Positions 6,094 to 30,863 of a DNA stretch of 32,000 nt are shown piece after piece. The notes below the pieces were generated by a model. It was given only the letters and a program-made list of their open reading frames with translations, ran no database searches and was not told the DNA's origin. Source of the stretch: Nostoc punctiforme PCC 73102 (GTDB lineage Bacteria > Cyanobacteriota > Cyanobacteriia > Cyanobacteriales > Nostocaceae); the NCBI RefSeq assembly GCF_000020025.1, contig NC_010628.1:2160001-2192000 (forward strand), read 5' to 3'. Positions within the stretch are counted from its first letter, which is position 1. Each line of letters starts with the position of its first letter. A program made the position numbers and the translations under genes.

Positions 6094-9000
6094 ATGAGTG
6101 CAAAAGTTGATGGAACTGTAAGGATCGCTGGCTACCAAATTATAGAGCAACTCTATTCTGGTTCTCGGACTCAAGTGTATCGGGCAATACGAGAATGCGA
6201 TCGCCAACCAGTCGTCATCAAGCTCTTAAAACGAGAATATCCAAGTTTTAGCGAATTAGTACAGTTTCGCAACCAATATGCGATCGCTAAAAACCTAGAT
6301 ATTCCCAGTATCATTAAACCTTACAGCCTAGAACCCCATCACAATGGCTATGCCCTAGTTATGGAAGACTTTGGTGGCATCTCCTTGCGGCAATTTACCC
6401 AAAGACGACCACTGAGCTTAGAGGAATTCCTACCCATTGCCTTGCAACTAATAGACACTTTACACCAGTTGCATCAACAGCGCGTCATTCACAAAGATGT
6501 CAAGCCAGCTAATATCCTGATTCATCCTGAAACCAAAAAAATTAAGCTAATCGACTTCAGTATTGCCTCGCTGCTACCACGAGAAACCCAGGAAATTCAA
6601 AGTCCCAACGGACTGGAGGGAACCCTAGCGTATTTGTCGCCAGAGCAAACTGGACGGATGAACCGAGGCATTGACTACCGCAGCGACTTTTATTCATTAG
6701 GTGTGACTTTCTTTGAACTACTGAGTGGACAACTGCCTTTTACATCTCACGATCCGATGGAGTTGTTACATTGTCATATCGCCAAACAGCCTGACTCTAT
6801 CTGTAATCTCAACCCGGAAATCCCCTTGATGTTGGGAGAGATTATTTGCAAGTTGATGGCAAAGAATGCCGAAGACCGCTACCAAAGTGCGATGGGACTC
6901 AAGCATGACTTAGTGTTCTGTTTAGAACAATGGCAAGAAACAGGCAAACACACTTGGTTTGATTTAGGACAGCGCGATATCAGCGATCGCTTTCTCATTC
7001 CTGAAAAACTCTACGGACGGGAGCAGGAAATAGAATGCTTACTGGAGGTATTTGGGCGGGTTGCCAATGGTGCAGTGGAACTGATGCTGGTGGCTGGCTT
7101 CTCTGGCATTGGTAAAACTGCCGTGGTGAATGAAGTGCATAAGGTTATCGTTCGCTGGAACGGCTACTTCATCAAAGGAAAGTATGACCAGTTCAACCGC
7201 AATATTCCCCTGTCTGCTTTTGTACAAGCTTTCCGGGATTTGATGGGACAGTTGCTCACTGAAAGCGACACTCAGCTGGAACAGTGGCGAAAAAAAATTC
7301 TGTCTGCAATCTCTGAAAGTGGACAGGTGATAATTGAAGTGATTCCAGAATTAGAACGGATTATTGGCACGCAACCGCCAGTACCAGAATTATCGGGTAG
7401 TGCTGCACAGAACCGCTTCAATCTGCTGTTTGTCAAATTTATTCAGGTATTCGCTACAAGAGAGCATCCGTTAGTAGTGTTCCTCGATGATTTACAGTGG
7501 GCAAATTTGGCATCTCTCAATTTAATAAGGCTGTTAATGGGTGAAACCTTAAAGGGTTATCTGTTAATTATTGGCGCATACCGTGATAATGAAGTGTTTG
7601 CGGCTCATCCGTTAATGGTGGCCCTGGAAGAGATTGAGAAGGGAGCCACCGTCAGCACCATTACATTAGCTCCTTTGAATCAAACAGATGTGAATCGTTT
7701 GATTGCCGATACATTGAGTTATTCAACAGAAGTTGCCCTGCCGTTAACCGAGCTAGTTTATCAAAAAGCCAAAGGTAATCCGTTTTTTACAATCCAGTTT
7801 CTCAAGGCATTACATGAAGATGGACGAATTACCTTTGATTGGGATACAGGTTTGTGGCAGTGCGATCTGGTGCAAGTACCCAGACGCACGGCAGCTTGTC
7901 TTCAGACATCGCTTTCTTTAACGGATGATGTCGTTGAGTTTATGGCAATTCAACTACAAAAGTTGCCGCTCGAAACTCAGGAAATTCTGAAATTGGCAGC
8001 CTGTATCGGTAATCAATTTGATTTGGCGACATTGGCGATCGTTTTTGAACAGTCTCCAACCCAAACAGCAGCAGTTTTGTGGAAAGCGTTGCAAGAAGGG
8101 TTAGTTTTACCACATTGTGATATCTATAAGTTTTATCAAGAGTCAGAAGCAATAAGAGATTCTTCTGACTTGGGGATTCTGGATTCTGGTTCCTGTGTTT
8201 ACACATTTCTGCACGATCGCGTCCAACAAGCAGCATATTCTCTCATCCCAGAGGAGCAAAAACAGGCAACTCATCTAAAAATTGGCCAGTTACTTCTGAG
8301 TAATACCCCCGAAAGCAACCGGGAAGAACGCATTTTTGAAATTGTCAGTCAACTTAACGTTGCGGCTGAATTGATTGCCCAACCCGCAGAACGTCAAGCA
8401 TTAGCGCAATTTAACCTGATGGCAAGCCGCAAAGCCAAGGCAGCGATTGCTTACACTGCCGCCTGCAAATATGCCCAAGTGGGCATTGGGCTACTCGCCC
8501 AAAACAGTTGGCAGCATCAGTATGAGTTAACCCTAGCACTCCATCAAGTTGCCACAGAAGCTGCCTATCTGAGCGGTGATTTAGAACAGATGGCAGCCAA
8601 TGCTCATCTTGTCTTAAATCACGCCAAAACTCCATTAGATAAAATCAGCGTCTATGAGGTGAAGATTGAAGTATTCACTGCTCAGGGTTATTTTGCCGAA
8701 GCGATCGCAGCAGCACTTACCATTTTAAAGCAATTGGGAGTGGAACTACCCACAGTGCCTACCCAGGAAGATGTGGCAGTGGCCTTTAGTACCGTCTTAG
8801 ATGTAATTGGAGAGCGATTCCCTGCCGAGTTGCTCAACCTCAGCGATGCGAGGGATGCAAACATCCTGGCAGCAGCTCGAATTTTGACATCAGTAGCACC
8901 TTGCGCTTATCTGTTCCAGCCACAGTTGTATTTACTGGTGATTTTAAAAAAGGTTTATTTATCTGTCGTCTATGGTAATGAATCAACCTCGACCTTTAGC

Positions 9001-12000
9001 TATGCCTCTTATGGAATATTGATGTGCGGTGTATTCAAAAACGTCGAATTAGGTTATGAATTCGGTCAGTTAGCCCTCGACCTGCGATCGCGCTATCAAA
9101 ATTCCGAATTGAAAGGGAAAACTTTATTACTAGTCTACTTATACACAAGGCATTGGAAAATCCATCTGCGGGAGTTATTACAACCCTTGCAGACAGCCTA
9201 TTGTAGTTGTTTAGATGTAGGCGATTTGGCTTTTGCGGGTTACTCTGCGTATAATTACGGTTTTTACTCCTATTTTTCAGGACAGAATTTAACACAGCTA
9301 GAGCCGGAAGTTGCTGATTATTGTGAAGCGCTCAAGCACCTCAAGCAAAATCTAGCTCTGAACTATTCCCAATTAATTCGACAAATTTTGCTGAATTTAA
9401 TGGGAGAAGCGGATGATGTTGTGGTGTTGAGCGGTACAGCCTACAATGAACAGCATCAACTTCCATTACATGAAGCAGCAGGCGATCGCACCGGATTAGC
9501 ATTGCTGTGGATTAACAAACTGGTTGTATCGTATTTGTTTTCCGAGTTTGAACAAGCCGTAGAACAAGCTAGGCAAGCGAGACAATATTTAGACGCTATT
9601 ATTGCTTTTTTATATGTACCTATCTTTCATTTCTATGATTCTTTAGCTCAACTAGCATGGTTTGAGCAACTCTCAGCCCTAGAACAGCAGCAAATGAAAG
9701 AATGCATTACTGCTAACCAAGAAAAACTTAACTACTGGGCTACCCATGCGCCAATAAATTTTCGACACAAATTTGATTTGGTGGAAGCCGAGCGTTATCG
9801 AGTTTTGGGCAATCGGGCAGAAGCAATTGAATGTTACGATCGCGCCATCATTGGAGCCAAAGAACAAGGCTATATTCAAGAAGAAGCACTAGCCAATGAA
9901 TTAGCCGCCAAATTCTACCTCGACTGGGGCAAAGAGCAGATTGCTCAGTCATACATGACTCAAGCCTACTATGGTTATGCTCGTTGGGGTGCGAAAACCA
10001 AAGTCGTCGATCTAGAAAAACGCTATCCCCAATTACTTGCCCCCATTCTTCAGCAAAGTCCTTCTCCTCTCTCAACTAACGAAACTATCTTTGCCTTGGG
10101 GAGTGTCACCTGCACCAGTTCTGCCAATTCCAGTAGTAGCAGCATTTCTGTTGCTCTAGATTTAGCTAGCATTCTCAAAGCTTCCCAAACCCTATCTGGC
10201 GAAATCGAACTAGAAAAACTGCTTTCAGTATTGCTGCATATCGTCATTGAAAATGCCGGAGCAGATAAGTGTGTGTTCATGCTTTTAGAATCAGGGCGTT
10301 TGCTAATTCAGGCGTTAGCACAGCTTTCTCTTGGTATCGTATCTATAGAGAACAAGGGAATTACCCATATTGATTTTTACCCAAGGTTGCTGAATCCACA
10401 GCCCATTGAAGACTCTCAGGATGTGCCAGTTGGCTTAATTAATACCGTCAAACGCAGCTTAAAACCAACGGTAATTATTGATGCCACAGTGCATCCTCAG
10501 TTCATCAACGATCCTTATATTCAGCAACAGCAGCCCAAAAGCATCTTGTGCAGCCCGATATTACATCAAGGGAAGTTGCTGGGCATATTGTATCTGGAAA
10601 ATAATCTGACAAATGGAGCCTTTACAAGCGATCGCGTCGAACTGCTGAACTTGCTTTGCGCTCAAGCGGCAATTTCTTTGGTGAATGCGCGACTTTATCA
10701 AAATTCCCAAAACTATGCTCAACAGTTGACGCAATCTCTAGCAAAATTACAGGCTAGTGAAATCCGCTTCCAAAATTTGGCGAATAATATTCCTGGTATG
10801 GTATACCAATTCCGTTTGGCGGCCGACGGTTCTATTTCAACACCCTACGTTAGCTCTGGCTGTTTGGACTTGTATGGCTTAGAGCCAGAGTTAGTGATGG
10901 CAGGGATACACAGCCTTTACGCTATGAATCATCCTGACGATCAACCAGCTATTGCAAAAGCGATCGCTTACTCTGCCAAAACTCTGACACCATTTGAGCA
11001 AGAATGGCGCATCATCCTGCCTTCAGGAACCATAAAATGGATTCAATCTGCGGCTCGGCCAGAGCGACAAGCCGATGGCGCAATCTTATGGGATGGGGTG
11101 GTAATTGATATTAGCGATGTCTACGACGAGCTTTGCTTACGCAAACAGGCCGAAGCATCTCTAGCCAAAGAACGAGAGTTCTTGAATGCCATTATTCAAA
11201 ATATTACAGATGGGATTGTTGTTTGTGACCCTAATGGAAATTTGATCTTATTCAATAACGCAACTCGTGAGTTTCATGGCTTACCAGTAGAATCATTGCC
11301 ACCAGAGCAATGGGCAGAACACTTCGATCTCTATCAACCTGACGGTCAAACACCCCTATCAACAACAGAAATTCCTTTGTTTCGCGCCTTGCAAGGGGAA
11401 ATAGTTGAAAATGCAGAAATCGTAATTGCACCGAAGCATGGTTCTAAGAGAATTTTGTTAGCAAGCGGACAAGCGATCGTCGATTTTTTGGGCAACAAAC
11501 TTGGTGCAGTAATTGTGATGCGAGATATTAGCGATGTTTACAACGAGCTTCGCTTACGCAAACAGGCAGAACTTACTTTACAGCAAAAATCACTTGATTT
11601 GCAACAAGCGCTAAATGATTTACAAAACGCCCAATTACAAATAGTTCAAAGTGAAAAGATGTCTGCACTGGGTAACTTAGTTGCTGGTGTCGCTCACGAA
11701 ATGAATAATCCCCTCGGTTTTATTGCTGCCAGTCTCAAACAAGCTAAACCCACTATTGCTGATATTATCGAACACTTGAAACTCTATCAAGAAACTTTAC
11801 CCAACAAGAACGATCAAATCAAAGATCATGCGGTCGAAATTGACTTAGATTATAGCTTAGAAGACTTGCCAAAGATGATTGATTCAATGTCTATGGCGTG
11901 CGACAGGTTAAAAAAAATCAGCACCAGTTTAAGAACTTTCTCTCGTGCAGATCAAGACTACAAAGTGCCTTTCAATATCCACCAAGGTATTGATAGCACA

Positions 12001-12456
12001 ATTTTAATTTTGAAACATCGTCTAAAGGCTAATGAACTACGCCCTGCCATTGAAGTTGTCACCAACTACGGTAATTTACCTCAAATTGAATGTTTCCCAG
12101 GGCAACTCAATCAGGTGTTTATGAATATTTTAGCAAATGCGATTGATGCTTTAGATGAGTCCACTCTTGAGCGGAGTTTGGCAGAGATTCAAGAAATTCC
12201 TAACCAAATTATAATTACAACCTCAGTCGAAAATCATCTAGTTAAAATTGCCATTGCTGATAATGGGAAAGGGATGAGCGAAGAAGTAAAATCAAAGATT
12301 TTCAACCATTTATTTACGACAAAAACTGTCGGTAAAGGTACGGGTTTGGGGTTGGCGATCGCTCGGCAAATTGTTGAAGAAACTCACAACGGTAAATTGA
12401 TTTGTAACTCGGTTCTGGGTCAGGGTACAGAATTCATTATTGAAATTCCAGTATAA
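6094..12456 (+). CDS. Multidomain sensor: Ser/Thr protein kinase, P-loop (STAND-like) NTPase, helical/TPR-like repeats, GAF, PAS, PAS, histidine kinase (no receiver domain)
   Basis: Kinase motifs: HKDVKPANIL (6490-6513), DFS (6553-6561) and GTLAYLSPE. Walker A is GFSGIGKT (7096-7119), with Walker-B-like VVFLDDLQWA. A long helical region spans about 8200-10000. GAF is about 10165-10700, and the two PAS domains are about 10765-11115 and 11165-11535. H-box VAHEMNNPL has its His codon at 11695-11697, with N-box NILANAIDA and G-box GKGTGLGLAI. Single uninterrupted 2120-codon ORF. Confidence 0.9.
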   Translation: MSAKVDGTVRIAGYQIIEQLYSGSRTQVYRAIRECDRQPVVIKLLKREYPSFSELVQFRNQYAIAKNLDIPSIIKPYSLEPHHNGYALVMEDFGGISLRQFTQRRPLSLEEFLPIALQLIDTLHQLHQQRVIHKDVKPANILIHPETKKIKLIDFSIASLLPRETQEIQSPNGLEGTLAYLSPEQTGRMNRGIDYRSDFYSLGVTFFELLSGQLPFTSHDPMELLHCHIAKQPDSICNLNPEIPLMLGEIICKLMAKNAEDRYQSAMGLKHDLVFCLEQWQETGKHTWFDLGQRDISDRFLIPEKLYGREQEIECLLEVFGRVANGAVELMLVAGFSGIGKTAVVNEVHKVIVRWNGYFIKGKYDQFNRNIPLSAFVQAFRDLMGQLLTESDTQLEQWRKKILSAISESGQVIIEVIPELERIIGTQPPVPELSGSAAQNRFNLLFVKFIQVFATREHPLVVFLDDLQWANLASLNLIRLLMGETLKGYLLIIGAYRDNEVFAAHPLMVALEEIEKGATVSTITLAPLNQTDVNRLIADTLSYSTEVALPLTELVYQKAKGNPFFTIQFLKALHEDGRITFDWDTGLWQCDLVQVPRRTAACLQTSLSLTDDVVEFMAIQLQKLPLETQEILKLAACIGNQFDLATLAIVFEQSPTQTAAVLWKALQEGLVLPHCDIYKFYQESEAIRDSSDLGILDSGSCVYTFLHDRVQQAAYSLIPEEQKQATHLKIGQLLLSNTPESNREERIFEIVSQLNVAAELIAQPAERQALAQFNLMASRKAKAAIAYTAACKYAQVGIGLLAQNSWQHQYELTLALHQVATEAAYLSGDLEQMAANAHLVLNHAKTPLDKISVYEVKIEVFTAQGYFAEAIAAALTILKQLGVELPTVPTQEDVAVAFSTVLDVIGERFPAELLNLSDARDANILAAARILTSVAPCAYLFQPQLYLLVILKKVYLSVVYGNESTSTFSYASYGILMCGVFKNVELGYEFGQLALDLRSRYQNSELKGKTLLLVYLYTRHWKIHLRELLQPLQTAYCSCLDVGDLAFAGYSAYNYGFYSYFSGQNLTQLEPEVADYCEALKHLKQNLALNYSQLIRQILLNLMGEADDVVVLSGTAYNEQHQLPLHEAAGDRTGLALLWINKLVVSYLFSEFEQAVEQARQARQYLDAIIAFLYVPIFHFYDSLAQLAWFEQLSALEQQQMKECITANQEKLNYWATHAPINFRHKFDLVEAERYRVLGNRAEAIECYDRAIIGAKEQGYIQEEALANELAAKFYLDWGKEQIAQSYMTQAYYGYARWGAKTKVVDLEKRYPQLLAPILQQSPSPLSTNETIFALGSVTCTSSANSSSSSISVALDLASILKASQTLSGEIELEKLLSVLLHIVIENAGADKCVFMLLESGRLLIQALAQLSLGIVSIENKGITHIDFYPRLLNPQPIEDSQDVPVGLINTVKRSLKPTVIIDATVHPQFINDPYIQQQQPKSILCSPILHQGKLLGILYLENNLTNGAFTSDRVELLNLLCAQAAISLVNARLYQNSQNYAQQLTQSLAKLQASEIRFQNLANNIPGMVYQFRLAADGSISTPYVSSGCLDLYGLEPELVMAGIHSLYAMNHPDDQPAIAKAIAYSAKTLTPFEQEWRIILPSGTIKWIQSAARPERQADGAILWDGVVIDISDVYDELCLRKQAEASLAKEREFLNAIIQNITDGIVVCDPNGNLILFNNATREFHGLPVESLPPEQWAEHFDLYQPDGQTPLSTTEIPLFRALQGEIVENAEIVIAPKHGSKRILLASGQAIVDFLGNKLGAVIVMRDISDVYNELRLRKQAELTLQQKSLDLQQALNDLQNAQLQIVQSEKMSALGNLVAGVAHEMNNPLGFIAASLKQAKPTIADIIEHLKLYQETLPNKNDQIKDHAVEIDLDYSLEDLPKMIDSMSMACDRLKKISTSLRTFSRADQDYKVPFNIHQGIDSTILILKHRLKANELRPAIEVVTNYGNLPQIECFPGQLNQVFMNILANAIDALDESTLERSLAEIQEIPNQIIITTSVENHLVKIAIADNGKGMSEEVKSKIFNHLFTTKTVGKGTGLGLAIARQIVEETHNGKLICNSVLGQGTEFIIEIPV
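8141..8195 (+). repeat. Hairpin plus heptamer tandem repeat embedded in the kinase CDS
   Basis: agtcagaag (8141-8149) pairs with cttctgact (8162-8170) around a 12-nt loop. This is followed by gattctg gattctg gttcctg (8175-8195). Related gagtcagaag / cagaattc strings occur in the intergenic region at 21551-21590. Confidence 0.45.
11116..11142 (+). repeat. 21-nt in-frame element with flanks, copy A (GAT|gtctacgacgagctttgctta|CGC)
   Basis: Encodes VYDELCL inside DISD-RKQAE. Removing 11119-11139 restores GCGATCGC. Confidence 0.65.
11533..11559 (+). repeat. 21-nt in-frame element with flanks, copy B (GAT|gtttacaacgagcttcgctta|CGC)
   Basis: Encodes VYNELRL inside DISD-RKQAE. Matches copy A at 24 of 27 positions. 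Removing 11536-11556 restores GCGATCGC. Confidence 0.65.
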
Positions 12457-19800: not shown

Positions 19801-19945
19801 CGCTTACCTGAATTGTGGGATAATCCACACTGGGTAAATCGCTGATTGGCAGCAAGCGATAACTCATAAAACCGAAAATCAAAATTGCCGTCATCACCAG
19901 AGTCGTCATGATCGGACGACGGATAAATGGTTCCGAAAGGTTCAT
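16841..19945 (-). CDS. RND efflux permease (HAE1, AcrB/MdtB-like), proximal paralogue
   Basis: 1034 aa. N-terminus MNLSEPFIRRPIMTTLVM and VVDDAIVMLENI motif. The start ATG overlaps the adaptor stop (ATGA at 19942-19945). Confidence 0.93.
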   Translation of the reverse strand: MNLSEPFIRRPIMTTLVMTAILIFGFMSYRLLPISDLPSVDYPTIQVSASRPGASPETMAASVARPLEKQFSSIAGLDSLNSTSTLGQTQITLQFNLSRNIDDAAQDVEAAISGASGQIATDLPNPPTYSKVNPADQPILYLYLDSPTLPLSQVDNYAETYLAQKLSTINGVAQVAVYGSQKYAARIQLDPQQLAARQIGLDQVATAIQQGNVNLPTGSLSGNHKNFTVQTNGQLEDAAAYRQLIVSYKDGMPIYLNQLGRIIDSVENDKVASWYNNTRAIILTIQRQPGTNTVQVVDTIKNLLPKLREQIPASVEIGILYDASQSIRDSVDDVRFTLILTIALVILVIFIFLRNLSATVIPSLALPVSLIGTFAVMYLLHYSLDNLSLMALTLSVGFVVDDAIVMLENIVRHIEMGERPLEAALNGSREIGFTILSMTLSLVAVFIPMLFMSEVLGRLFHEFAVTIAVAILVSGFVSLTLTPMLCSRFLRPVDHANQSRLYQASEYVFDRFLGLYDWSLKKVLKYHRTTMILSVFLLAVTVGLLVIVPKGFIPSEDTGQITGITQAAEDASFDNLVQHQQTVANLIRQDPNVDAVNSNIGAGASASGGGAAVAANSGSLFIRLKPRSQRQLGADEIVQNLRTKLATVPGIQVFLQNPPAIPIGAQQSTGLYQVALQSSDVKLLQEYVPQLVTKMKDMTELQDVNSDLQFASQIQIDIDRDKASTYGITAEQIENTLRSAYGSYQVSTIYAATNEYQVILELAPQYQEDINALLTLYINSSTGVAVPLKTFAKLSQGVSPLMVNHNGRMNAATISFNLAPGVSLGNANEEIQKLIDRVIPASISTSFQGASQVFQSSLPSLGLLLAIAILVIYLILGILYEDFIHPITILSGLPSAGFGALLTLIIFHVELNVYSFIGIILLVGIVKKNGIMMVDFAIVAQREELKKPSEAIYQACLVRFRPIMMTTMAALMGTLPIAIGFGAGSESRRPLGIAVVGGLVFSQILTLYLTPVFYIYMESWRKKLNQVKLRRVFS

Positions 19946-21519
19946 GATTCACCCCCGCCTGACTTCGGGGATTCTCCCCCTTGCTCCTTGGTCACTGAGC
20001 GCAGTCGAAGTGTGCCCCCTGCCCCTCTTCTTGACTTCGAGGAATTTCCATTTGAGTCATTGCCGCTTGTTTTAATGCGGATTTTGCTACCCGAAATAAG
20101 ATTCGCTTGACCATCGGTGACAATTTTATCGCCTGGTTGCGGCCCTTTTTGAACCACATCTAGTCCATCAATGGTGCTGCTAATTGTAACTGGCACATTT
20201 TCCACCGTCATGTCTGGCTTAACTACAAACACAAACTGGCCATCCGGACCATTCTGCACGGCTTGGCTGGGGACAACCGTTGCATTCGGTTGTTCAGTCA
20301 GCGTTAGCGTTGTGTTCACAAATTGACCAGGAAACAAGTGTCCCTGAGCGTTGTCGAAGTCGCCAATCAGTTGAATTGTCCCTGTGGTGTTATCGACCGT
20401 ATTATTGACAAAAGTCAAAACACCTGGTGCGGGATGAGCTTGATCGTTGGGGAACGTCACATCTACCTTCAGCCTGCCATTCTGCATATACTTTTGTACC
20501 TGGGGCAGATTTGTTTCGGGAATGGAAAAAGCAACTTGAATCGGGCGAATTTGGGTTAGGGTAACAAGCGGAGTCGTACTGTTAGCTTGCACCACATTGC
20601 CCTGAGTCACCAGAATATTGCCAGCGCGGCCATCAATCGGCGCATAAATTTTGGCGTAAGATAATTGCACTTTGGTATTGTCTAATGCTCCCCGATCGGA
20701 ACGGACAACGGCTTGAGCATTCGCGATCGCAGCTCGATCGCCTTGGACAACTGCTCCAGCATTAGTCAGCGCCACGCGATCGCTTTTCAAAACTGCTTCA
20801 GCATTAGCGATCGCTTCTCGATCTGCTTGCAGAGTTGCTGTAGCCGATTTGCTGTTAGAAACGTATTGCTGTGCTTGATCTAAACTAATCGCGCCCTTTT
20901 TGTACAATGCACTATAGCGATCGCTCTGTCCCTGAGCAAATTCTGCTTGCGCTCGATCTTTAGCTAAATTCGCCTGAGCTTGTCGCACCAAAGCTTGGTC
21001 TTTGACTAAAGTGGCTCTAGCTTGGTCTACCTGACCCAAATCTCTAGTTAATGCATCTCTGGCTTGTTGTACCGAGGCTTGGTCTTTTGCTACAGTACCT
21101 TGAGCTTGCTGGATTGCAGCAGTTTGCGATCGGTCATCTAGGGTAAACAAAAGTTGTCCCTTTTTCACATCTTGACCTTTCTTAAAATAAACCCCAATAA
21201 TCCGTCCGCTAGCTTCGGGCGTAATCGATACCGTAGAACCCGATTGCACATTCCCGATCGCCTGCAATTGCACCGGAACCGTTTTTTGTGTCACCATTGC
21301 CACGGTTACAGGTGTAACTTGCTGTTTATTGCGCCCAGATTTTTCAGCTTTGTCTGACTTGGCTGCACCCGCATGGATACCAAAAAAATCCAACCCAGCT
21401 AGCAACAGCACGCCCAAAATTACCAAACGAATCTTTTTCTTTTTTGGCGATCGCGGTAACTTCGGCTCTATACTGTTCTCGTTTTCAGTCAAACTCTCAC
21501 TAGTAATTTCATGGTTCAT
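19942..21519 (-). CDS. RND periplasmic adaptor (membrane fusion protein) with unusually long coiled-coil hairpin
   Basis: Contains an N-terminal TM anchor, a lipoyl/barrel-type segment (GRIIGVYFKKGQDVKKGQLLFTLD ... IYAPIDGRAGN) and C-terminal beta domains. The track start 21531 is GTG. The ATG at 21519 is preceded by GGAGG (21525-21529, minus strand) with a 5-nt spacer. Confidence 0.9.
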   Translation of the reverse strand: MNHEITSESLTENENSIEPKLPRSPKKKKIRLVILGVLLLAGLDFFGIHAGAAKSDKAEKSGRNKQQVTPVTVAMVTQKTVPVQLQAIGNVQSGSTVSITPEASGRIIGVYFKKGQDVKKGQLLFTLDDRSQTAAIQQAQGTVAKDQASVQQARDALTRDLGQVDQARATLVKDQALVRQAQANLAKDRAQAEFAQGQSDRYSALYKKGAISLDQAQQYVSNSKSATATLQADREAIANAEAVLKSDRVALTNAGAVVQGDRAAIANAQAVVRSDRGALDNTKVQLSYAKIYAPIDGRAGNILVTQGNVVQANSTTPLVTLTQIRPIQVAFSIPETNLPQVQKYMQNGRLKVDVTFPNDQAHPAPGVLTFVNNTVDNTTGTIQLIGDFDNAQGHLFPGQFVNTTLTLTEQPNATVVPSQAVQNGPDGQFVFVVKPDMTVENVPVTISSTIDGLDVVQKGPQPGDKIVTDGQANLISGSKIRIKTSGNDSNGNSSKSRRGAGGTLRLRSVTKEQGGESPKSGGGES

Positions 21520-21547
21520 CAGAACCTCCACTGGATTTTAGTTTATT

Positions 21548-21752
21548 AAAAACAGAATTCAGGAGTCAGAAGCCAGAATTCAGTATGATAGGACTTAAGC
21601 AAAATATCTCTCAAACTCCCATTTCTCCGTGTCCTCTGCGCCTCTGCGGTAGCCTGCGGCAAGCCACTTCTCTACGAGACGCTACGCGAACGTGTCTACG
21701 TTATTTCGTAATAATTTATTTTGAATTCTTAATTCTGCCTTCTGAATTCTTT
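21548..21752. repeat. Intergenic region built almost entirely of nested small repeats
   Basis: The outer gaattc-rich arms are cagaattcaggagtcagaagccagaattcag (about 21553-21583) and gaattcttaattctgccttctgaattc (about 21723-21749), in inverse orientation. The inner part has ctccgtgtcctctgcgcctctgcggt (one arm of the 16669 element family) and ctctacgagacgctacgcgaacgtgtctacg. Confidence 0.5.
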
Positions 21753-21760
21753 TTCAATAC

Positions 21761-22726
21761 TTAACTTAACTGCTGCTGTAAAAGTTTAAGAGCTTGTTTT
21801 TCTATCTGCCGGACTCGTTCTCGACTAATACCCAAACGCTGACCAATCTGTTGTAGAGAAAGTTCTTCTCCATCTGTCAATCCAAAGTGCAAATTTAATA
21901 TTTCTTGTTGTTGGCGAGACAAATTTGACAATAAACTGTTAACCTCTTGATTGAGAGATTCCTCTGTGATATAGCTGTTAGAAGAATATTTATAATCTTC
22001 TATTAAATCTTGTAATCTTAAATCTTTTTCTGAGCTAACTCGAATATCAAGAGAGATAGTTCGAGTAGCCAAAAGCAGAAATTCTCGAATCTGACTAGGT
22101 TTTAAAGAAAGTGCATTAGCAATTTCCGTACTGGTGGGAATCCGACCTAGTGTTTGAGATAGCTCTCGCTGAACACGCTTAATTTTGTTTAATTTTTCAT
22201 TGATGTGAATGGGTAATCGAATCGCGCGTCCTTGCTGGGCGATCGCTCTGGTAATTCCTTGACGAATCCACCAGTAAGCGTAGGTTGAAAACCTATATCC
22301 TAGAGCCGGATTGAATTTTTCAACCCCTCTTTCCAAACCTAATGTACCTTCTTGAATTAAGTCCATCAGTTCTAAGTTACGTCTCTGATATTGCTTGGCA
22401 ATTGATACCACCAGCCGGAGATTAGCCGTTATCATTTTATGTTTGGCTTTTTTCCCTTGATTTAGCTGCTGAAGTAGTTCCTGTTCGCTTAACTGCATCT
22501 GGTTAGCCCATTCTGACAGCGTGGGTGTACGCTTTAATTCAATAGTCAGTTTTTCTGATTCAGCAAGTATTGTCATCAGTTGCTGAACTTCTTGGGCAAA
22601 AATAATTTCTTGCTCCTGGGTTAACAGAGGTATCCTGCCAATTTCTTTAAGATAAGCACGGACTGTATCAGTTGTAGCTTTGTTTGTGTTACTAGCTTTA
22701 GTATCTGAGAATGTTAAGTTACTCAT
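21761..22726 (-). CDS. RNA polymerase sigma-70 factor, group 2 (RpoD-like)
   Basis: Contains [21 protein letters not shown] (region 1.2) and [41 protein letters not shown] (region 2). Also has [16 protein letters not shown] (region 3) and the region 4 [28 protein letters not shown]. The track start 22846 is TTG and reads through a dispersed repeat. The ATG at 22726 gives 321 aa. Confidence 0.9.
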
Positions 22727-22786
22727 ATAGCAATCAGATTTGATTTCTAAATTGTTTGCTGAGGCAGGTAATAGGAAAGAAGCAAG

Positions 22787-22849
22787 AGGCAAAAGGCAAT
22801 ATTTAAGAAGGCTCTTTGAGCTATATTGAATATTTTCAAAAATCAAATA
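22787..22849. repeat. 63-nt dispersed repeat, copy 1 (upstream of the sigma factor gene)
   Basis: aggcaaaaggcaatatttaagaaggctctttgagctatattgaatattttcaaaaatcaaata. By hand alignment, 54 of 63 positions are identical to 31044-31106, ungapped and in the same orientation. Confidence 0.7.
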
Positions 22850-28720: not shown

Positions 28721-30076
28721 TTATATTTTATGAGGAAGTCGAACTGTAAATGTACTGCCCAGCTTTGGTTGACTTTGAACATGAATACTGCCTTTGTGTG
28801 CTTGGACGATCGCAATAGCGATCGCTAATCCCAATCCCGAACCGCCAGAGCTACGAGAGCGTAAGCGCAGCCCGTCGTAGGCATCGCTATCAACTCGGTA
28901 AAAGCGATCAAAAATTCGCTTTTGATGTTCTAGAGCAATACCAATTCCTGTATCTTGAACTTTAATAACTGCGTAGCGTTCGCTATCTTCTAAAAAAACT
29001 GTAACTTTTCCCCCGCTAGGCGTTGCTTGAATTGCATTAACAATTAAATTTGAAATTAAACGATAAAGCTGTTCTTCATTTCCCATAACGTACAGTTTTT
29101 TGGCAAAGAGCGCTTGCTTTGAGAGGCTTACCTTCGTCTCAATTGCTAAAAATGCTAGTTCCTCAACTAAGTCGCTAATTAAATCGTTCAAACAGCAAGG
29201 ATGATATTCTTCTGTTAGTTGTTTTTGATCTATCTTCGTTAAAAGCAACAAATCTCCTACTAATTGTGAAAGACGGCGATTTTGGCGTTTGAGAACATCC
29301 AAAATTCCGTTACTTGATTTTGGTTCTTGTTGTAACTTGATAGCAGCTTCAATCGTAGAGTGCATCGCTGCTAAAGGTGTACGAAACTCATGGGCCGCAT
29401 CAGCAGTAAATTGTTGCATTTGTTGGTAAGAATAATATACAGGTTGCATTGCCCTTCCTGCCAACCACCAACTAGACAAAGCAACAAAAATCATTGAAAT
29501 TGGCAACCCCAACACCAAAGTTAATCTCAAATAAGCAAGATGTTGGTCTAAATCAGTAAGGCTTCGCGCCACTTGTAGATAACCCGAAAGCTGATTTTGA
29601 GTATACACAGGTAAAGTGATTTGGCGGTATCGAGTGCCAGAAGAATCTGTTATAATTTGCCAATGTTGTGATAATGAAATAATCGGTAATTTATCAAATT
29701 GTATACCTGTACTTGCAAATACTTTTCCCGAACTATCCAATAACCTTATATAGTAATTAACTTGATTACTCGCCTCTTTTATTGATTGTTTAATGACTGC
29801 TGTTTTAGGCAAACAGTTTTTTTGATCTACACATAATTCTAAAGAAAATTCTTTAGCAAGGCTTTGTAATTGTCCCGGTTGCTGCCAAGCCGATTCAATA
29901 CCTTTATGAAGTGCGTTTGCTACTGATTGTAATCCCTGATCTATGGTTTCATGATAGGCATGAGCAACAACACTATAAACACCAAGACCAGATAGCCCTA
30001 AAATCCCACCCATTACTAGGCTATACCAAACTGCTAGGCGGAACCGAGTTTGGTGGAAAATTGGATTGCGTTCCAT
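28721..30076 (-). CDS. Sensor histidine kinase, OmpR-partner type (2 TM, HAMP, HisKA, HATPase)
   Basis: H-box AAHEFRTPL, N-box LISNLIVNAIQAT, G1 VQDTGIGI, G2 GGSGLGLAIA. Two hydrophobic segments flank a periplasmic region of about 150 aa. Confidence 0.9.
   Translation of the reverse strand: MERNPIFHQTRFRLAVWYSLVMGGILGLSGLGVYSVVAHAYHETIDQGLQSVANALHKGIESAWQQPGQLQSLAKEFSLELCVDQKNCLPKTAVIKQSIKEASNQVNYYIRLLDSSGKVFASTGIQFDKLPIISLSQHWQIITDSSGTRYRQITLPVYTQNQLSGYLQVARSLTDLDQHLAYLRLTLVLGLPISMIFVALSSWWLAGRAMQPVYYSYQQMQQFTADAAHEFRTPLAAMHSTIEAAIKLQQEPKSSNGILDVLKRQNRRLSQLVGDLLLLTKIDQKQLTEEYHPCCLNDLISDLVEELAFLAIETKVSLSKQALFAKKLYVMGNEEQLYRLISNLIVNAIQATPSGGKVTVFLEDSERYAVIKVQDTGIGIALEHQKRIFDRFYRVDSDAYDGLRLRSRSSGGSGLGLAIAIAIVQAHKGSIHVQSQPKLGSTFTVRLPHKI
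28859..28885 (-). repeat. 21-nt in-frame element with flanks, copy C (GAT|gcctacgacgggctgcgctta|CGC on the minus strand)
   Basis: Encodes AYDGLRL between FYRVDSD and RSRSSGGSGLGL. Matches copy A at 23 of 27 positions. Removing 28862-28882 restores GCGATCGC. Confidence 0.65.
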
Positions 30077-30122: not shown

Positions 30123-30863
30123 TTAGCAGCCTGTTTCCGCGCTATGAATATTTAGGCGATAACCCACACCATAGATAGTTTCAATCAAAGATTCGCTATC
30201 TTCTTCGCCTAATTTGCGTCTCAATAAGCGAATTTGCGCTGCTACTACATTGCTAACTGGTTCTGCACCAATTTCCCAAAGTTGATTAATAATCTGGTCG
30301 CGGCTGATAATATGGTTAGGATGCCTCATGAAATATTCTAGCAATTGAAATTCCTTGACAGTTAACGAGAATACTCGCTTTTCTCTATGCGAATACTGAC
30401 GAGTAAGTTCATGAGTACTGTAATTGAGTATCAGGCAACCTACTTGTAAGCGCCGGGGTTGGACTTGAGGTGTAAGGGTTGCTCCTACGTAAGAGGCTCG
30501 CCTTTGTAATGCCCGCAATCTTGCCAGTAACTCGGCCATTCCAAATGGTTTAATTAAATAATCATCTGCACCGCTATCTAGACCAATAATCTTTTCTTCC
30601 ATCCGGTCTTTAGCTGTTAGCATCAATACAGGTAGAGTTAAATGGCGCGATCGCAACCATTTACACAACTCCACACCCGAAACTCCTGGCAGCATCCAAT
30701 CAAAAATCGCTAGCGTGTACTCAGTCCAGCCTGTTTCTAAATACTGCCATGCCTGACTACCATCTAGAAACCAGTCAACCACATACGCCTCATGACTCAA
30801 GACTTGTTTAATTGCTGCACCTAAATCTGCCTCATCTTCAACTAATAGAAGTCGCATAGTCAA
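30123..30863 (-). CDS. Response regulator, OmpR/PhoB family (REC + winged helix)
   Basis: Motifs LLLVEDE, AIFDWMLPGVSG, LMLTAKD and GADDYLIKPF, with C-terminal LTVKEFQLLEYFMRHPNHIISRDQI ... VGYRL. Lies 46 nt upstream of its kinase. Confidence 0.92.
   Translation of the reverse strand: MTMRLLLVEDEADLGAAIKQVLSHEAYVVDWFLDGSQAWQYLETGWTEYTLAIFDWMLPGVSGVELCKWLRSRHLTLPVLMLTAKDRMEEKIIGLDSGADDYLIKPFGMAELLARLRALQRRASYVGATLTPQVQPRRLQVGCLILNYSTHELTRQYSHREKRVFSLTVKEFQLLEYFMRHPNHIISRDQIINQLWEIGAEPVSNVVAAQIRLLRRKLGEEDSESLIETIYGVGYRLNIHSAETGC

What the first reader, a model, noticed from the sequence alone, without database searches (positions are those of the whole stretch)
28854..28890. Third copy of the same 21-nt element in the ATP-lid of an unrelated histidine kinase, again splitting HIP1
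In the OmpR-type kinase, the segment between the F-box and G2 box reads FYRVDSD-AYDGLRL-RSRSSGGSGLGL. Typical members go from RVD..(K/A) straight to RSR..GGSGLGL.

- **DNA reading.** The minus strand reads aGCGAT|gcctacgacgggctgcgctta|CGCtct, which matches copy A at 23 of 27 positions. Deleting the 21 nt restores GCGATCGC.
- **Shared frame and orientation.** All three copies have the same orientation relative to the coding strand and the same frame, giving x-Y-D/N-x-L-x-L.
- **Why the orientation is fixed.** In the opposite orientation the element would begin with TAA in this frame (gat taa gcg ...). Only this orientation can survive inside a GAT|CGC-phased HIP1 codon pair.

This suggests a HIP1-targeted micro-element that is filtered by selection into tolerated loops.
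Basis: partly seen in the sequence, partly recalled or inferred. Interest (0 to 1): 0.7.

Follow-up and report, generated by a model that had tools for sequence, protein, structure and literature searches.

The report
Known 21-nt HIP1-splitting repeat in kinase
A 21-base mobile DNA snippet that always lands inside the cyanobacterial GCGATCGC palindrome has added seven amino acids to a flexible loop of a Nostoc punctiforme sensor kinase.

Summary
At 28859-28887 (minus strand) the rppB histidine-kinase gene reads GCGAT|GCCTACGACGGGCTGCGCTTA|CGC. This is an in-frame 21-nt insert, AYDGLRL at residues 398-404, that splits a HIP1 site between the F box and the G2 box.

Of 119 full-length orthologues, 117 lack the insert. 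Solved kinase structures align with a 7-residue gap exactly there.

A scan with the element core alone, without HIP1 flanks, found 101 cyanobacterial copies. Of these, 52 have perfect GCGAT...CGC flanks, and each flank position is 82-97% conserved. None of 20 chance hits in other phyla has such flanks.

The window is Nostoc punctiforme PCC 73102. Elhai et al. (2008) defined "small dispersed repeats" in this organism, and their SDR5 inserts between nucleotides 3 and 4 of HIP1. That is the same junction read on the other strand. The kind is therefore already known.

The orientation bias itself is real.

- Filled and empty rppB alleles differ only by the 21 nt at 98% DNA identity.
- Filled alleles are scattered among empty ones.
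- Two thirds of in-frame copies sit at PAS-domain ends.

The parts
28862..28882 (-). 21-nt small dispersed repeat, copy C (GCCTACGACGGGCTGCGCTTA). It encodes AYDGLRL, residues 398-404 of RppB.
   Evidence: Absent from 117 of 119 orthologues.
28883..28887 (-). Left half of the split HIP1 (GCGAT).
   Evidence: In the flank profile of 101 copies each position is 88-97% conserved.
28859..28861 (-). Right half of the split HIP1 (CGC).
28721..30076 (-). Host gene rppB, a sensor histidine kinase (ArlS_N, HisKA and HATPase_c domains).
   Evidence: Pfam scan. 100% identical to N. punctiforme RppB, WP_012408458.
30123..30863 (-). Cognate OmpR-type response regulator (Response_reg plus Trans_reg_C).
   Evidence: The same gene pair is seen in orthologous loci.
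11119..11139 (+). Copy A of the same element (GTCTACGACGAGCTTTGCTTA, VYDELCL). It sits at the end of a PAS_3 domain, in DISD|RKQAE.
11536..11556 (+). Copy B (GTTTACAACGAGCTTCGCTTA, VYNELRL). It sits at the end of the second PAS domain. Close orthologues have an empty site here.
6094..12456 (+). Host of copies A and B: a 2120-aa protein with Ser/Thr kinase, AAA_16, GAF, two PAS domains and a histidine kinase module.

Best explanation
Copy C is one member of a family of 21-nt, non-coding, non-palindromic dispersed repeats of heterocystous cyanobacteria. The family is almost certainly SDR5 of Elhai et al. 2008.

**How the element behaves.**
- It is always joined the same way to a HIP1 site: its GTC/GCC end to GCGAT and its TTA end to CGC. 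This is between nt 5 and 6 on its own strand, or nt 3 and 4 on the other strand.
- There is no target duplication and no loss of target bases.
- It is exactly seven codons long and is open in four of six frames, so an insertion into a gene does not break the reading frame.
- Selection then keeps only copies in segments that tolerate seven extra residues.

**Copy C.** In rppB the HIP1 site was the (A/C)GC GAT CGC codon triplet encoding (S/R)-D-R between the F and G2 boxes. The insert lengthens the flexible ATP lid, and the gene stays intact.

**Shown here.**
- The junction geometry.
- Lineage-specific presence of the insert.
- Filled and empty alleles that differ only by the 21 nt.
- The frame and orientation bias of in-gene copies.

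**Inferred.** The element is put in and taken out precisely by a trans-acting activity that cuts HIP1 asymmetrically. That enzyme is unidentified. In RppB the insert is a tolerated passenger rather than an adaptation.
For: **Dispersed element tied to HIP1.**
- The core pattern TACRACGRGCTNYGCTTA carries no HIP1 bases.
- Of 101 cyanobacterial copies, 52 have perfect GCGAT...CGC flanks, and every flank position is 82-97% conserved. None of 20 hits in other phyla has them.
- Upstream flanks beyond about 12 nt are unrelated between copies.

**Lineage-specific insert in RppB.**
- Only P0001 (N. punctiforme) and P0004 carry it among 119 full-length orthologues.
- Empty orthologous sites include intact CGCGATCGC in P0009 and P0006.

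**Recent gain or loss.**
- Within one cluster at 90% identity or more, filled (451 aa) and empty (444 aa) alleles coexist, and the filled ones are not each other's nearest relatives.
- L131 (filled) and L132 (empty) are 98.0% identical across the gene. Their only indel in the gene is the 21 nt.

**Location in the ATP lid.**
- VicK 4i5s and WalK 5c93/4u7n align as FDRFYRVD-------KARSRAQGGTGLGL.
- In the AlphaFold model residues 398-404 are coil. Mean pLDDT is 53 and 58 for the two 10-residue blocks that cover the insert, against 72-90 for most blocks in the rest of the catalytic domain.

**Identity with the published element.**
- The window is N. punctiforme PCC 73102.
- SDR5 is reported to insert precisely between the 3rd and 4th nt of HIP1 (PMC4390886) and to be confined to Nostocaceae (PMC5861425).
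- A blastn search of 72,556 plasmids hit only Nostocales.
Against: - I could not read Elhai et al. 2008. Identity with the published SDR5 consensus therefore rests on length, host, target junction and taxonomic range, not on a sequence comparison.
- No enzyme or transposition intermediate was identified, and the element has no hairpin for a known ssDNA transposase to bind.
- Filled and empty alleles could also arise by recombination between strains rather than by excision.
- A few copies lie in MAGs labelled as non-Nostocales. This is either mis-binning or a wider range than published.
Confidence: 0.85

Rival explanations
1. The seven residues are an ancestral or functional feature of this kinase family, not an insertion.
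For: The insert is in frame and the gene is intact. Two lineages carry it.
Against: - 117 of 119 orthologues go directly from D to RSR, and solved homologues show a 7-residue gap.
- The same 21 nt occurs in non-coding DNA and in unrelated genes.
- The insert peptide drifts: AYDGLRL, AYGGLCL, AYGGLRL.
- Alleles 98% identical differ by its presence.
Confidence: 0.02
2. There is no dedicated mobility mechanism. The 21 nt spreads and disappears by short-patch gene conversion or homologous recombination between HIP1-flanked sites, including allelic exchange between co-occurring Nostoc strains.
For: - 44 of 66 in-frame copies sit in the conserved PAS-end context ATT AGC GAT|CGC AAA CA, which offers about 10-12 nt of homology on each side.
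- Filled and empty rppB alleles are scattered among near-identical sequences, as recombination would produce.
- The L131/L132 pair has no differences within 28 nt upstream of the insert or anywhere downstream of it in the gene.
Against: - Non-coding copies and the rppB copy share only the 5+3 (at most 6+3) HIP1 bases with other copies. That is too little for RecA-type exchange.
- There is no local drop in Npun-P0004 divergence around the insert.
- The junction is invariant to the nucleotide.
Confidence: 0.2
3. The rppB insert arose twice independently at the same HIP1 site, once in the N. punctiforme lineage and once in the N. commune / lichen-cyanobiont lineage. This is a target hot spot, rather than one ancestral insertion followed by precise losses.
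For: A codon-based neighbour-joining tree puts N. punctiforme with the empty P0002/P0007, and P0004 with the empty P0009/P0025, in about all bootstrap replicates. In the protein tree P0001 and P0004 are never sisters, 0 of 200. Site B of the large protein shows the same patchiness.
Against: - Both rppB copies share the rare variants GCC at the start (3/101 copies) and G at position 15 (9/101).
- They differ at 3/21 positions, about the divergence of the flanking gene, 0.13-0.17. This fits one old insertion.
- L131 and L132 share the flank mutation GAT to GAC. The empty allele is therefore more simply a precise loss than the filled one a re-insertion into a non-HIP1 site.
Confidence: 0.25
4. 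The insert has been co-opted. A seven-residue module, one heptad long, tunes the ATP lid here and the helical linkers after PAS domains.
For: - In-frame copies are heavily enriched at PAS ends: 44/66, against 13/170 for intact HIP1 sites in the same phase.
- They are almost all in one frame and orientation, 63 F0 against 1 R2.
- 21 nt equals 7 residues. The heptad periodicity of PAS-kinase linkers is established knowledge and was not tested here.
Against: - For rppB, presence or absence varies among near-identical alleles and the insert peptide drifts with non-synonymous changes. This is the behaviour of a neutral passenger.
- Enrichment can equally come from purifying selection removing copies elsewhere.
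- Counts include orthologous copies from many species and are not independent events.
Confidence: 0.1

Closest known systems
SDR5, one of the small dispersed repeats (21-27 nt) of Nostoc punctiforme and relatives (Elhai, Kato, Cousins, Lindblad, Costa 2008, Genome Res 18:1484)
   Same: - Same organism: the window is N. punctiforme PCC 73102.
- Same size class (21 nt).
- Same target and junction: between nt 3 and 4 of HIP1, which is nt 5/6 read on the element strand.
- No coding capacity.
- Confined essentially to heterocystous cyanobacteria.
- Presence/absence differences between close relatives.
   Different: No tested feature differs. The published consensus could not be compared because the paper is not in the held library. 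Two points may or may not be in that paper: the concentration of in-frame copies at PAS-domain ends, and the filled/empty rppB allele pairs.
Rickettsia palindromic elements (RPE) inserted in frame into protein-coding genes (Ogata et al. 2000; from my own knowledge)
   Same: Selfish repeats that survive inside ORFs because they keep the frame and land in tolerated surface segments, adding a peptide to the host protein.
   Different: RPEs are about 100-150 bp, palindromic, and have no HIP1-like fixed target. This element is 21 nt and has no hairpin.
REP/REPIN elements mobilised by RAYT transposases (Bertels and Rainey 2011, PMC3116915)
   Same: Very short, non-autonomous, highly repeated DNA. 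N. punctiforme also carries REPINs and RAYTs.
   Different: REPs are extragenic palindromes that fold into hairpins. This element does not fold better than shuffled controls (z from -0.16 to +1.67), and in this sample about three quarters of copies lie inside long open reading frames.
IS200/IS605-family elements and their miniature derivatives (ssDNA 'peel and paste'; from my own knowledge)
   Same: Insertion immediately 3' of a specific penta- or tetranucleotide (here GCGAT), no target duplication, fixed orientation relative to the target, and seamless excision.
   Different: Those elements need subterminal hairpins at both ends and are at least 100 nt long. The 21-mer has none, and no associated TnpA was examined.
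MITEs such as Nezha in cyanobacteria
   Same: Non-autonomous dispersed repeats in the same genomes.
   Different: MITEs have terminal inverted repeats, make target-site duplications and exceed 100 bp. Comparison of filled and empty sites here shows no duplication and no inverted repeats.

Membership tests
SDR5 (small dispersed repeat 5, Elhai et al. 2008) | Very short (21-27 nt) non-coding repeat dispersed in N. punctiforme and its relatives | tested here: met
   The element is 21 nt. There are three copies in this 32-kb window and 101 cyanobacterial copies in the capped genome scan, mostly Nostoc. The size range is from my recollection of the abstract.
SDR5 (small dispersed repeat 5, Elhai et al. 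2008) | Precise insertion between the 3rd and 4th nucleotides of HIP1 (GCG|ATCGC) | tested here: met
   GCGAT|element|CGC on the element strand is GCG|element'|ATCGC on the complementary strand. Empty orthologous sites are intact GCGATCGC, with no duplication or loss. The feature is as quoted in PMC4390886.
SDR5 (small dispersed repeat 5, Elhai et al. 2008) | Restricted to the Nostocaceae lineage | tested here: inconclusive
   All 39 plasmid hits are Nostocales, and the genome scan is dominated by Nostoc. A few hits lie in MAGs labelled Coleofasciculus, Planktothrix, Pseudanabaena, Stenomitos, Microcoleus, Leptolyngbyaceae and Gloeobacterales. Mis-binning was not excluded.
SDR5 (small dispersed repeat 5, Elhai et al. 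2008) | Sequence matches the published SDR5 consensus | not testable with these tools
   The paper (PMC2527708) is not held, and no held paper quotes the sequence.
SDR5 (small dispersed repeat 5, Elhai et al. 2008) | Evidence of mobility: presence/absence between close relatives | tested here: met
   rppB is filled or empty at 98% DNA identity. Site B of the large sensor protein is filled in the window and in P0124, and empty in P0121/122/123/125-127.
Class I sensor histidine kinase (HisKA + HATPase_c; RppB) | HisKA and HATPase_c domains above the Pfam gathering scores, next to an OmpR-type regulator | tested here: met
   HATPase_c scores 98.7 bits (cut-off 26.4) and HisKA 52.4 bits (cut-off 26.9). 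The neighbouring gene has Response_reg plus Trans_reg_C. NCBI names the protein RppB.
Class I sensor histidine kinase (HisKA + HATPase_c; RppB) | The insert lies in the ATP lid, the segment between the F box and the G2 box | tested here: met
   F388-R393 (FDRFYR) is followed by the insert at 398-404 and then G410-L416 (GGSGLGL). There is a 7-residue gap against 4i5s, 5c93 and 4u7n. The model shows coil with pLDDT 53-58. That this segment is the ATP lid is established knowledge.
REP / REPIN | Imperfect palindrome that forms a stable hairpin; extragenic | tested here: not met
   DNA folding energies of both strands are no better than shuffles. 73 of 96 flanked copies lie in ORFs of at least 150 codons.
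IS200/IS605-derived miniature element | Insertion 3' of a fixed short target without target duplication | tested here: met
   The element always follows GCGAT, and comparison of filled and empty sites shows no duplication.
IS200/IS605-derived miniature element | Subterminal hairpins at both ends recognised by TnpA | tested here: not met
   There is no significant secondary structure in 29 nt on either strand.
MITE | Terminal inverted repeats and a target-site duplication | tested here: not met
   The ends GTCTAC... and ...GCTTA are not inverted repeats. Empty sites show no duplication.

The most novel reading that the evidence does not exclude
The element is still active in present-day Nostoc populations and moves by seamless insertion and seamless excision at HIP1. 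It would do so through an unidentified HIP1-specific strand-transfer activity that needs no hairpin, which would be a mechanism unlike any characterised transposition system.

Its seven-codon length would have let it become a recurrent one-heptad spacer at PAS-domain linkers and in kinase loops. On this reading, part of the diversity of Nostoc sensor proteins is generated by a 21-nt parasite.

The rppB alleles would be the first clean excision footprint. They share rare element variants, are scattered among empty alleles, and include a filled/empty pair at 98% identity that shares a mutated flank.
Probability: 0.15. Interest if true: 0.65.

Novelty: already known. Interest (0 to 1): 0.3.

Why it matters
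How a 21-nt sequence with no coding capacity, no inverted repeats and no hairpin can be inserted to the nucleotide into a palindromic octamer has been unexplained since it was reported in 2008. It also bears on what HIP1 itself is for.

This particular copy adds nothing new in kind. It does give a concrete, easily assayed case:
- An essential-looking catalytic domain tolerates the insert.
- Natural alleles exist that differ only by the 21 nt.
- A population of lichen and soil Nostoc still segregates the filled and empty states.

For genome annotation, such 7-residue lineage-specific segments in Nostoc sensor proteins should be read as repeat insertions, not as functional motifs.

Tried and rejected
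- **Reading the primary paper.** Look-ups by DOI, two PMC ids and the PubMed id all failed. Four literature searches found no held paper that quotes the SDR5 sequence.
- **Hairpin or REP-like structure.** Rejected. DNA folds of both strands of three variants are no better than shuffles.
- **Slipped-strand deletion or duplication as the source of filled and empty alleles.** Rejected. There is no microhomology at either junction: C versus A on the left, G versus C on the right. The 6-nt GCCTAC repeat in the L131 variant is 16 nt apart, not 21 (by inspection).
- **Local allele transfer between the two filled rppB lineages.** No dip in divergence appears around the insert in 150-nt windows.
- **Ligation into a PvuI- or AsiSI-type staggered cut.** This would leave an AT duplication at the element's end. 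The element ends in TTA, so simple ligation is rejected (inference from the sequence).
- **Copies A and B as a tandem domain duplication.** Rejected. They follow different PAS subfamilies (PAS_3 and PAS), and orthologues carry A without B.
- **First bootstrap script.** It timed out and was redone with a faster script.
Rejected on geometry (and direct translation).
Full report
**What is in the sequence**

On the minus strand, window 28887..28859 reads GCGAT GCCTACGACGGGCTGCGCTTA CGC. It lies in frame in ORF 28721..30076(-), which translates ...RIFDRFYRVDSD-AYDGLRL-RSRSSGGSGLGLAIA.... Deleting the 21 nt restores GCGATCGC.

The pattern GCGAT-N21-CGC occurs three times in the window (0.45 expected; 0 of 100 shuffles reach three). 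The other two copies are at 11114..11142(+) and 11531..11559(+). Within the 21 nt the copies are 16-18/21 identical to each other. A scan allowing up to 6 mismatches found no further convincing copy. HIP1 itself occurs 32 times, against 0.28 expected.

**The host genes**

- The ORF carrying copy C has ArlS_N, HisKA and HATPase_c domains. The gene just upstream of it on the coding (minus) strand, at 30123-30863, is an OmpR-type response regulator.
- The kinase is 100% identical to RppB of Nostoc punctiforme ATCC 29133 / PCC 73102, on an 8,234,322-bp contig. This identifies the source of the window.
- Copies A and B lie in a 2120-aa multidomain sensor protein. Each sits immediately after a PAS domain, in the junction DISD|RKQAE.

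**Is the 7-residue segment lineage-specific and in the ATP lid?**

Yes to both.

- In a MAFFT alignment of the 120 best RppB homologues, only N. punctiforme (AYDGLRL) and P0004 (Nostoc sp. ChiQUE02, AYGGLCL) have the segment. One of the 120 is a fragment that does not cover the site. The other 117 go directly from D (or N/A/V) to RSR.
- phmmer against PDB sequences aligns VicK (4i5s) and WalK (5c93, 4u7n) as FDRFYRVD-------KARSRAQGGTGLGL. The 7-residue gap falls exactly at the insert.
- In an AlphaFold2 model built on 34 orthologues, residues 398-404 are coil. Mean pLDDT for the two 10-residue blocks covering the insert is 53 and 58. Most blocks in the rest of the catalytic domain score 72-90.
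- The segment between the F box (F388-R393) and the G2 box (G410-L416) is the ATP lid of GHKL kinases. This is established knowledge.

**Is it a dispersed element tied to split HIP1?**

I scanned one genome per species (GTDB) with the element core only, TACRACGRGCTNYGCTTA, which contains no HIP1 bases.

- 101 copies are in cyanobacterial records, mostly Nostoc.
- Of these, 52 have perfect GCGAT...CGC flanks. Each of the eight flank positions is 82-97% conserved, and the three element bases outside my pattern are GTC in 88 copies.
- None of the 20 hits in other phyla (Streptomyces, Vibrio, Bacteroidota and others) has these flanks. They serve as a chance control.
- Flanks beyond about 12 nt are unrelated between copies.
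- A blastn search of a 31-mer (element plus flanks) against 72,556 plasmids hit 39 records, all Nostocales.

**Two subfamilies**

- ...GAGCT(T)CGC... has 72 copies and is mostly in genes, encoding VYDELRL.
- ...GGGCT(A)CGC... has 24 copies and is mostly outside long ORFs.
- Copy C belongs to the second subfamily and is one of its rarer in-frame coding members.

**Already known**

Elhai (2015, PMC4390886) cites Elhai et al. [quoted passage not shown] Xu et al. (2018, PMC5861425) state that HIP1 is an insertion site for SDR5 in the Nostocaceae and that no SDR was found outside that lineage.

GCGAT|X|CGC on the element strand is GCG|X'|ATCGC on the complement, so the junction is the same. The 2008 survey was done on N. 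punctiforme, the genome of this window. I recall the size range 21-27 nt from its abstract.

I could not open the paper, and no held paper gives the consensus. The label SDR5 is therefore inferred from host, size, target junction and range, not from a sequence match.

**Frame and orientation**

Among 96 copies with at least 6 of 8 HIP1 flank bases, the distribution was as follows:

| Location | Copies |
|---|---|
TTA\|CGC (F0), in an ORF of at least 150 codons | 63 |
| Frame F1, same ORF criterion | 8 |
| Frame F2, same ORF criterion | 1 |
| Reverse orientation (R2), same ORF criterion | 1 |
| Not in such an ORF | 23 |

- HIP1 is palindromic and the junction is asymmetric. A reverse copy would therefore lie at GCG|TAAGCG...GTAGAC|ATCGC.
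- In the xGC GAT CGC phase this reads V-S-(E/A)-A-R-R-R-H and is open. My frame R2 is the only reverse frame without stops.
- The TAA and TAG stops block only the other two phases.
- Intact HIP1 sites in long ORFs of the same loci are distributed 250: 170: 58 over the three phases. Phase alone therefore does not explain 63: 8: 1.

What remains is selection on the peptide (an amphipathic VYDELRL against a basic RRRH), a mechanistic strand bias, or both. The counts include orthologous copies from many species and are not independent events. From inspection of the upstream flanks, I estimate at least 30 distinct PAS-end sites.

**Where in-frame copies sit**

- Of 66 F0 copies, 44 are at PAS-end junctions of the type x-I-(S/T)-D|R-K.
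- Another 16 are at one orthologous ALRD|REQELR linker, and 6 are elsewhere.
- Only 13 of 170 intact HIP1 sites in the same phase have the PAS-end context.
- Copies A and B are typical of the majority. The RppB copy belongs to the small "elsewhere" class.

**Evidence for gain and loss**

*Two clades.*
- DNA at the rppB site is AGCGAT|GCCTACGACGGGCTGCGCTTA|CGC in N. punctiforme and CGCGAT|GCCTACGGCGGGCTGTGCCTA|CGC in P0004.
- Empty sites read CGCGATCGC (P0009, P0006), AGCGTTCGC (P0002), CGCAACCGC (P0007) and CGTGACCGC (P0025).
- A codon-based neighbour-joining tree places N. punctiforme with the empty P0002 and P0007, and P0004 with the empty P0009 and P0025, in essentially all bootstrap replicates. 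In the protein tree P0001 and P0004 are never sisters, 0 of 200.
- Yet both filled copies share the rare variants GCC (3/101 copies) and G at position 15 (9/101). They differ at 3/21 positions, about the divergence of the flanking gene.

*Polymorphism within one cluster.*
- Inside the cluster of P0004 (90% identity or more), four alleles are filled (451 aa, AYGGL[R/C]L) and at least ten are empty (444 aa).
- The filled ones are not each other's nearest relatives. P0254 is 1.6% from the empty P0253 but 7-9% from the other filled alleles.

*A clean filled/empty pair.*
- L131 (Nostoc sp. 'Peltigera membranacea cyanobiont' 210A, filled) and L132 (empty) are 98.0% identical over the gene.
- Their only indel in the gene is exactly the 21 nt: GATCGCGAC|GCCTACGGCGGGCTGCGCCTA|CGCTCT against GATCGCGAC|CGCTCT.
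- Both share the flank change GAT to GAC.
- The simplest reading is one old insertion followed by several seamless losses.
- Allelic recombination between strains, or repeated insertion, cannot be excluded.
- No junction microhomology exists that could produce the deletion by slippage.

*Site B of the large sensor protein shows the same patchiness.*
- It is filled in the window and in P0124.
- It is empty in P0121/122/123/125-127. P0121 reads AGC GAG CGC there.
- In P0128 the site is occupied by a different 21-nt insert, GCTTATCGACAAGCTACACAA.

**Mechanism**

*Shown:*
- Insertion exact to the nucleotide, 3' of GCGAT.
- No target duplication.
- Fixed polarity relative to the asymmetric junction.
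- Seamless presence/absence differences between alleles.
- No hairpin.

*Inferred:* a trans-acting activity cuts or transfers strands at HIP1. The behaviour most resembles IS200/IS605-type "peel and paste" in target use, lack of duplication and clean excision. The element lacks the hairpins that family requires, so I do not file it there. Simple ligation into a PvuI/AsiSI-type staggered cut would leave an AT duplication, which is not seen.

For RppB, I judge the insert to be a tolerated passenger in a loop of naturally variable length. The gene is intact in both states, the insert peptide drifts, and both states segregate among near-identical alleles.

**Verdict**

It restates a result published in 2008 for this genome. 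The stop-codon explanation for orientation is wrong for the phase concerned.

The interest lies in three by-products:
- The clean filled/empty allele pairs.
- The scatter of filled alleles among empty ones.
- The strong concentration of in-frame copies at PAS-domain ends.

Noticed in passing
Loci L001-L120, e.g. L006, L013, L030, L096; window 11114-11142 and 11531-11559: Two thirds (44/66) of in-frame copies sit at the C-terminal end of PAS domains, in D-I-(S/T)-D|R-K, giving DISD-VYDELRL-RKQAE. Only 13 of 170 intact HIP1 sites in the same codon phase have that context. Seven residues is one heptad of the helical linker that follows PAS domains.
   Followed up: partly
L129 (encodes P0128), gene 1086-1700, codons about 149-164: At the site orthologous to copy B, a metagenomic Nostoc-like gene carries a different 21-nt insert in the same split HIP1: GCGAT|GCTTATCGACAAGCTACACAA|CGC (AYRQATQ). 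It shares CGAC and CTAC blocks with the element. It may be a diverged copy or a sister repeat family.
   Followed up: partly
L131 vs L132 (rppB of two lichen-associated Nostoc): The filled and empty alleles are 98.0% identical and both carry GCGAC instead of GCGAT on the left flank. The empty allele is GCGACCGC, which is no longer a HIP1 site. This fits seamless loss of the element after the flank mutated.
   Followed up: yes
L043, L049, L051, L067, L079, L087, L097, L100, L107, L119: Copies with HIP1 flanks occur in MAGs labelled Coleofasciculus, Allocoleopsis, Planktothrix, Leptolyngbyaceae, Pseudanabaena, Stenomitos, Coleofasciculaceae, Microcoleus, Sericytochromatia and Gloeobacterales. 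Published statements confine SDRs to Nostocaceae. Some of these flanks are nearly identical to Scytonema or Tolypothrix DNA, so mis-binning is likely.
   Followed up: no
L008, L035, L056, L075, L079, L083, L097, L100, L109, L119 and others: One orthologous site, ...EAALRD-VYDELRL-REQELRLITDALP..., lies in ORFs of up to about 2000 codons where the 8-kb locus does not cut them short. It carries the element in many genera, with a right flank CGA instead of CGC. It looks like an old, fixed insertion.
   Followed up: no
window 21670-21690 (+): CTCTACGAGACGCTACGCGAA matches the element consensus at 15/21 but has no HIP1 flanks (CACTT...CGT). It lies between ORFs 19942-21531 and 21761-22846. It is either chance or a decayed relic.
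   Followed up: no
L091, minus strand of the locus, element 1054-1074 in reverse-complement coordinates: This is the only copy found in the reverse, open frame of a long ORF (406 codons). Its flanks are weak (AAGAT...CGC). It would show what a reverse in-frame insertion looks like as a peptide.
   Followed up: no
window, whole: There are 32 intact HIP1 octamers in 32 kb (0.28 expected). Two more lie within 45 nt downstream of copy C, in the codons for LAIAIAIV of the G2-box helix.
   Followed up: partly
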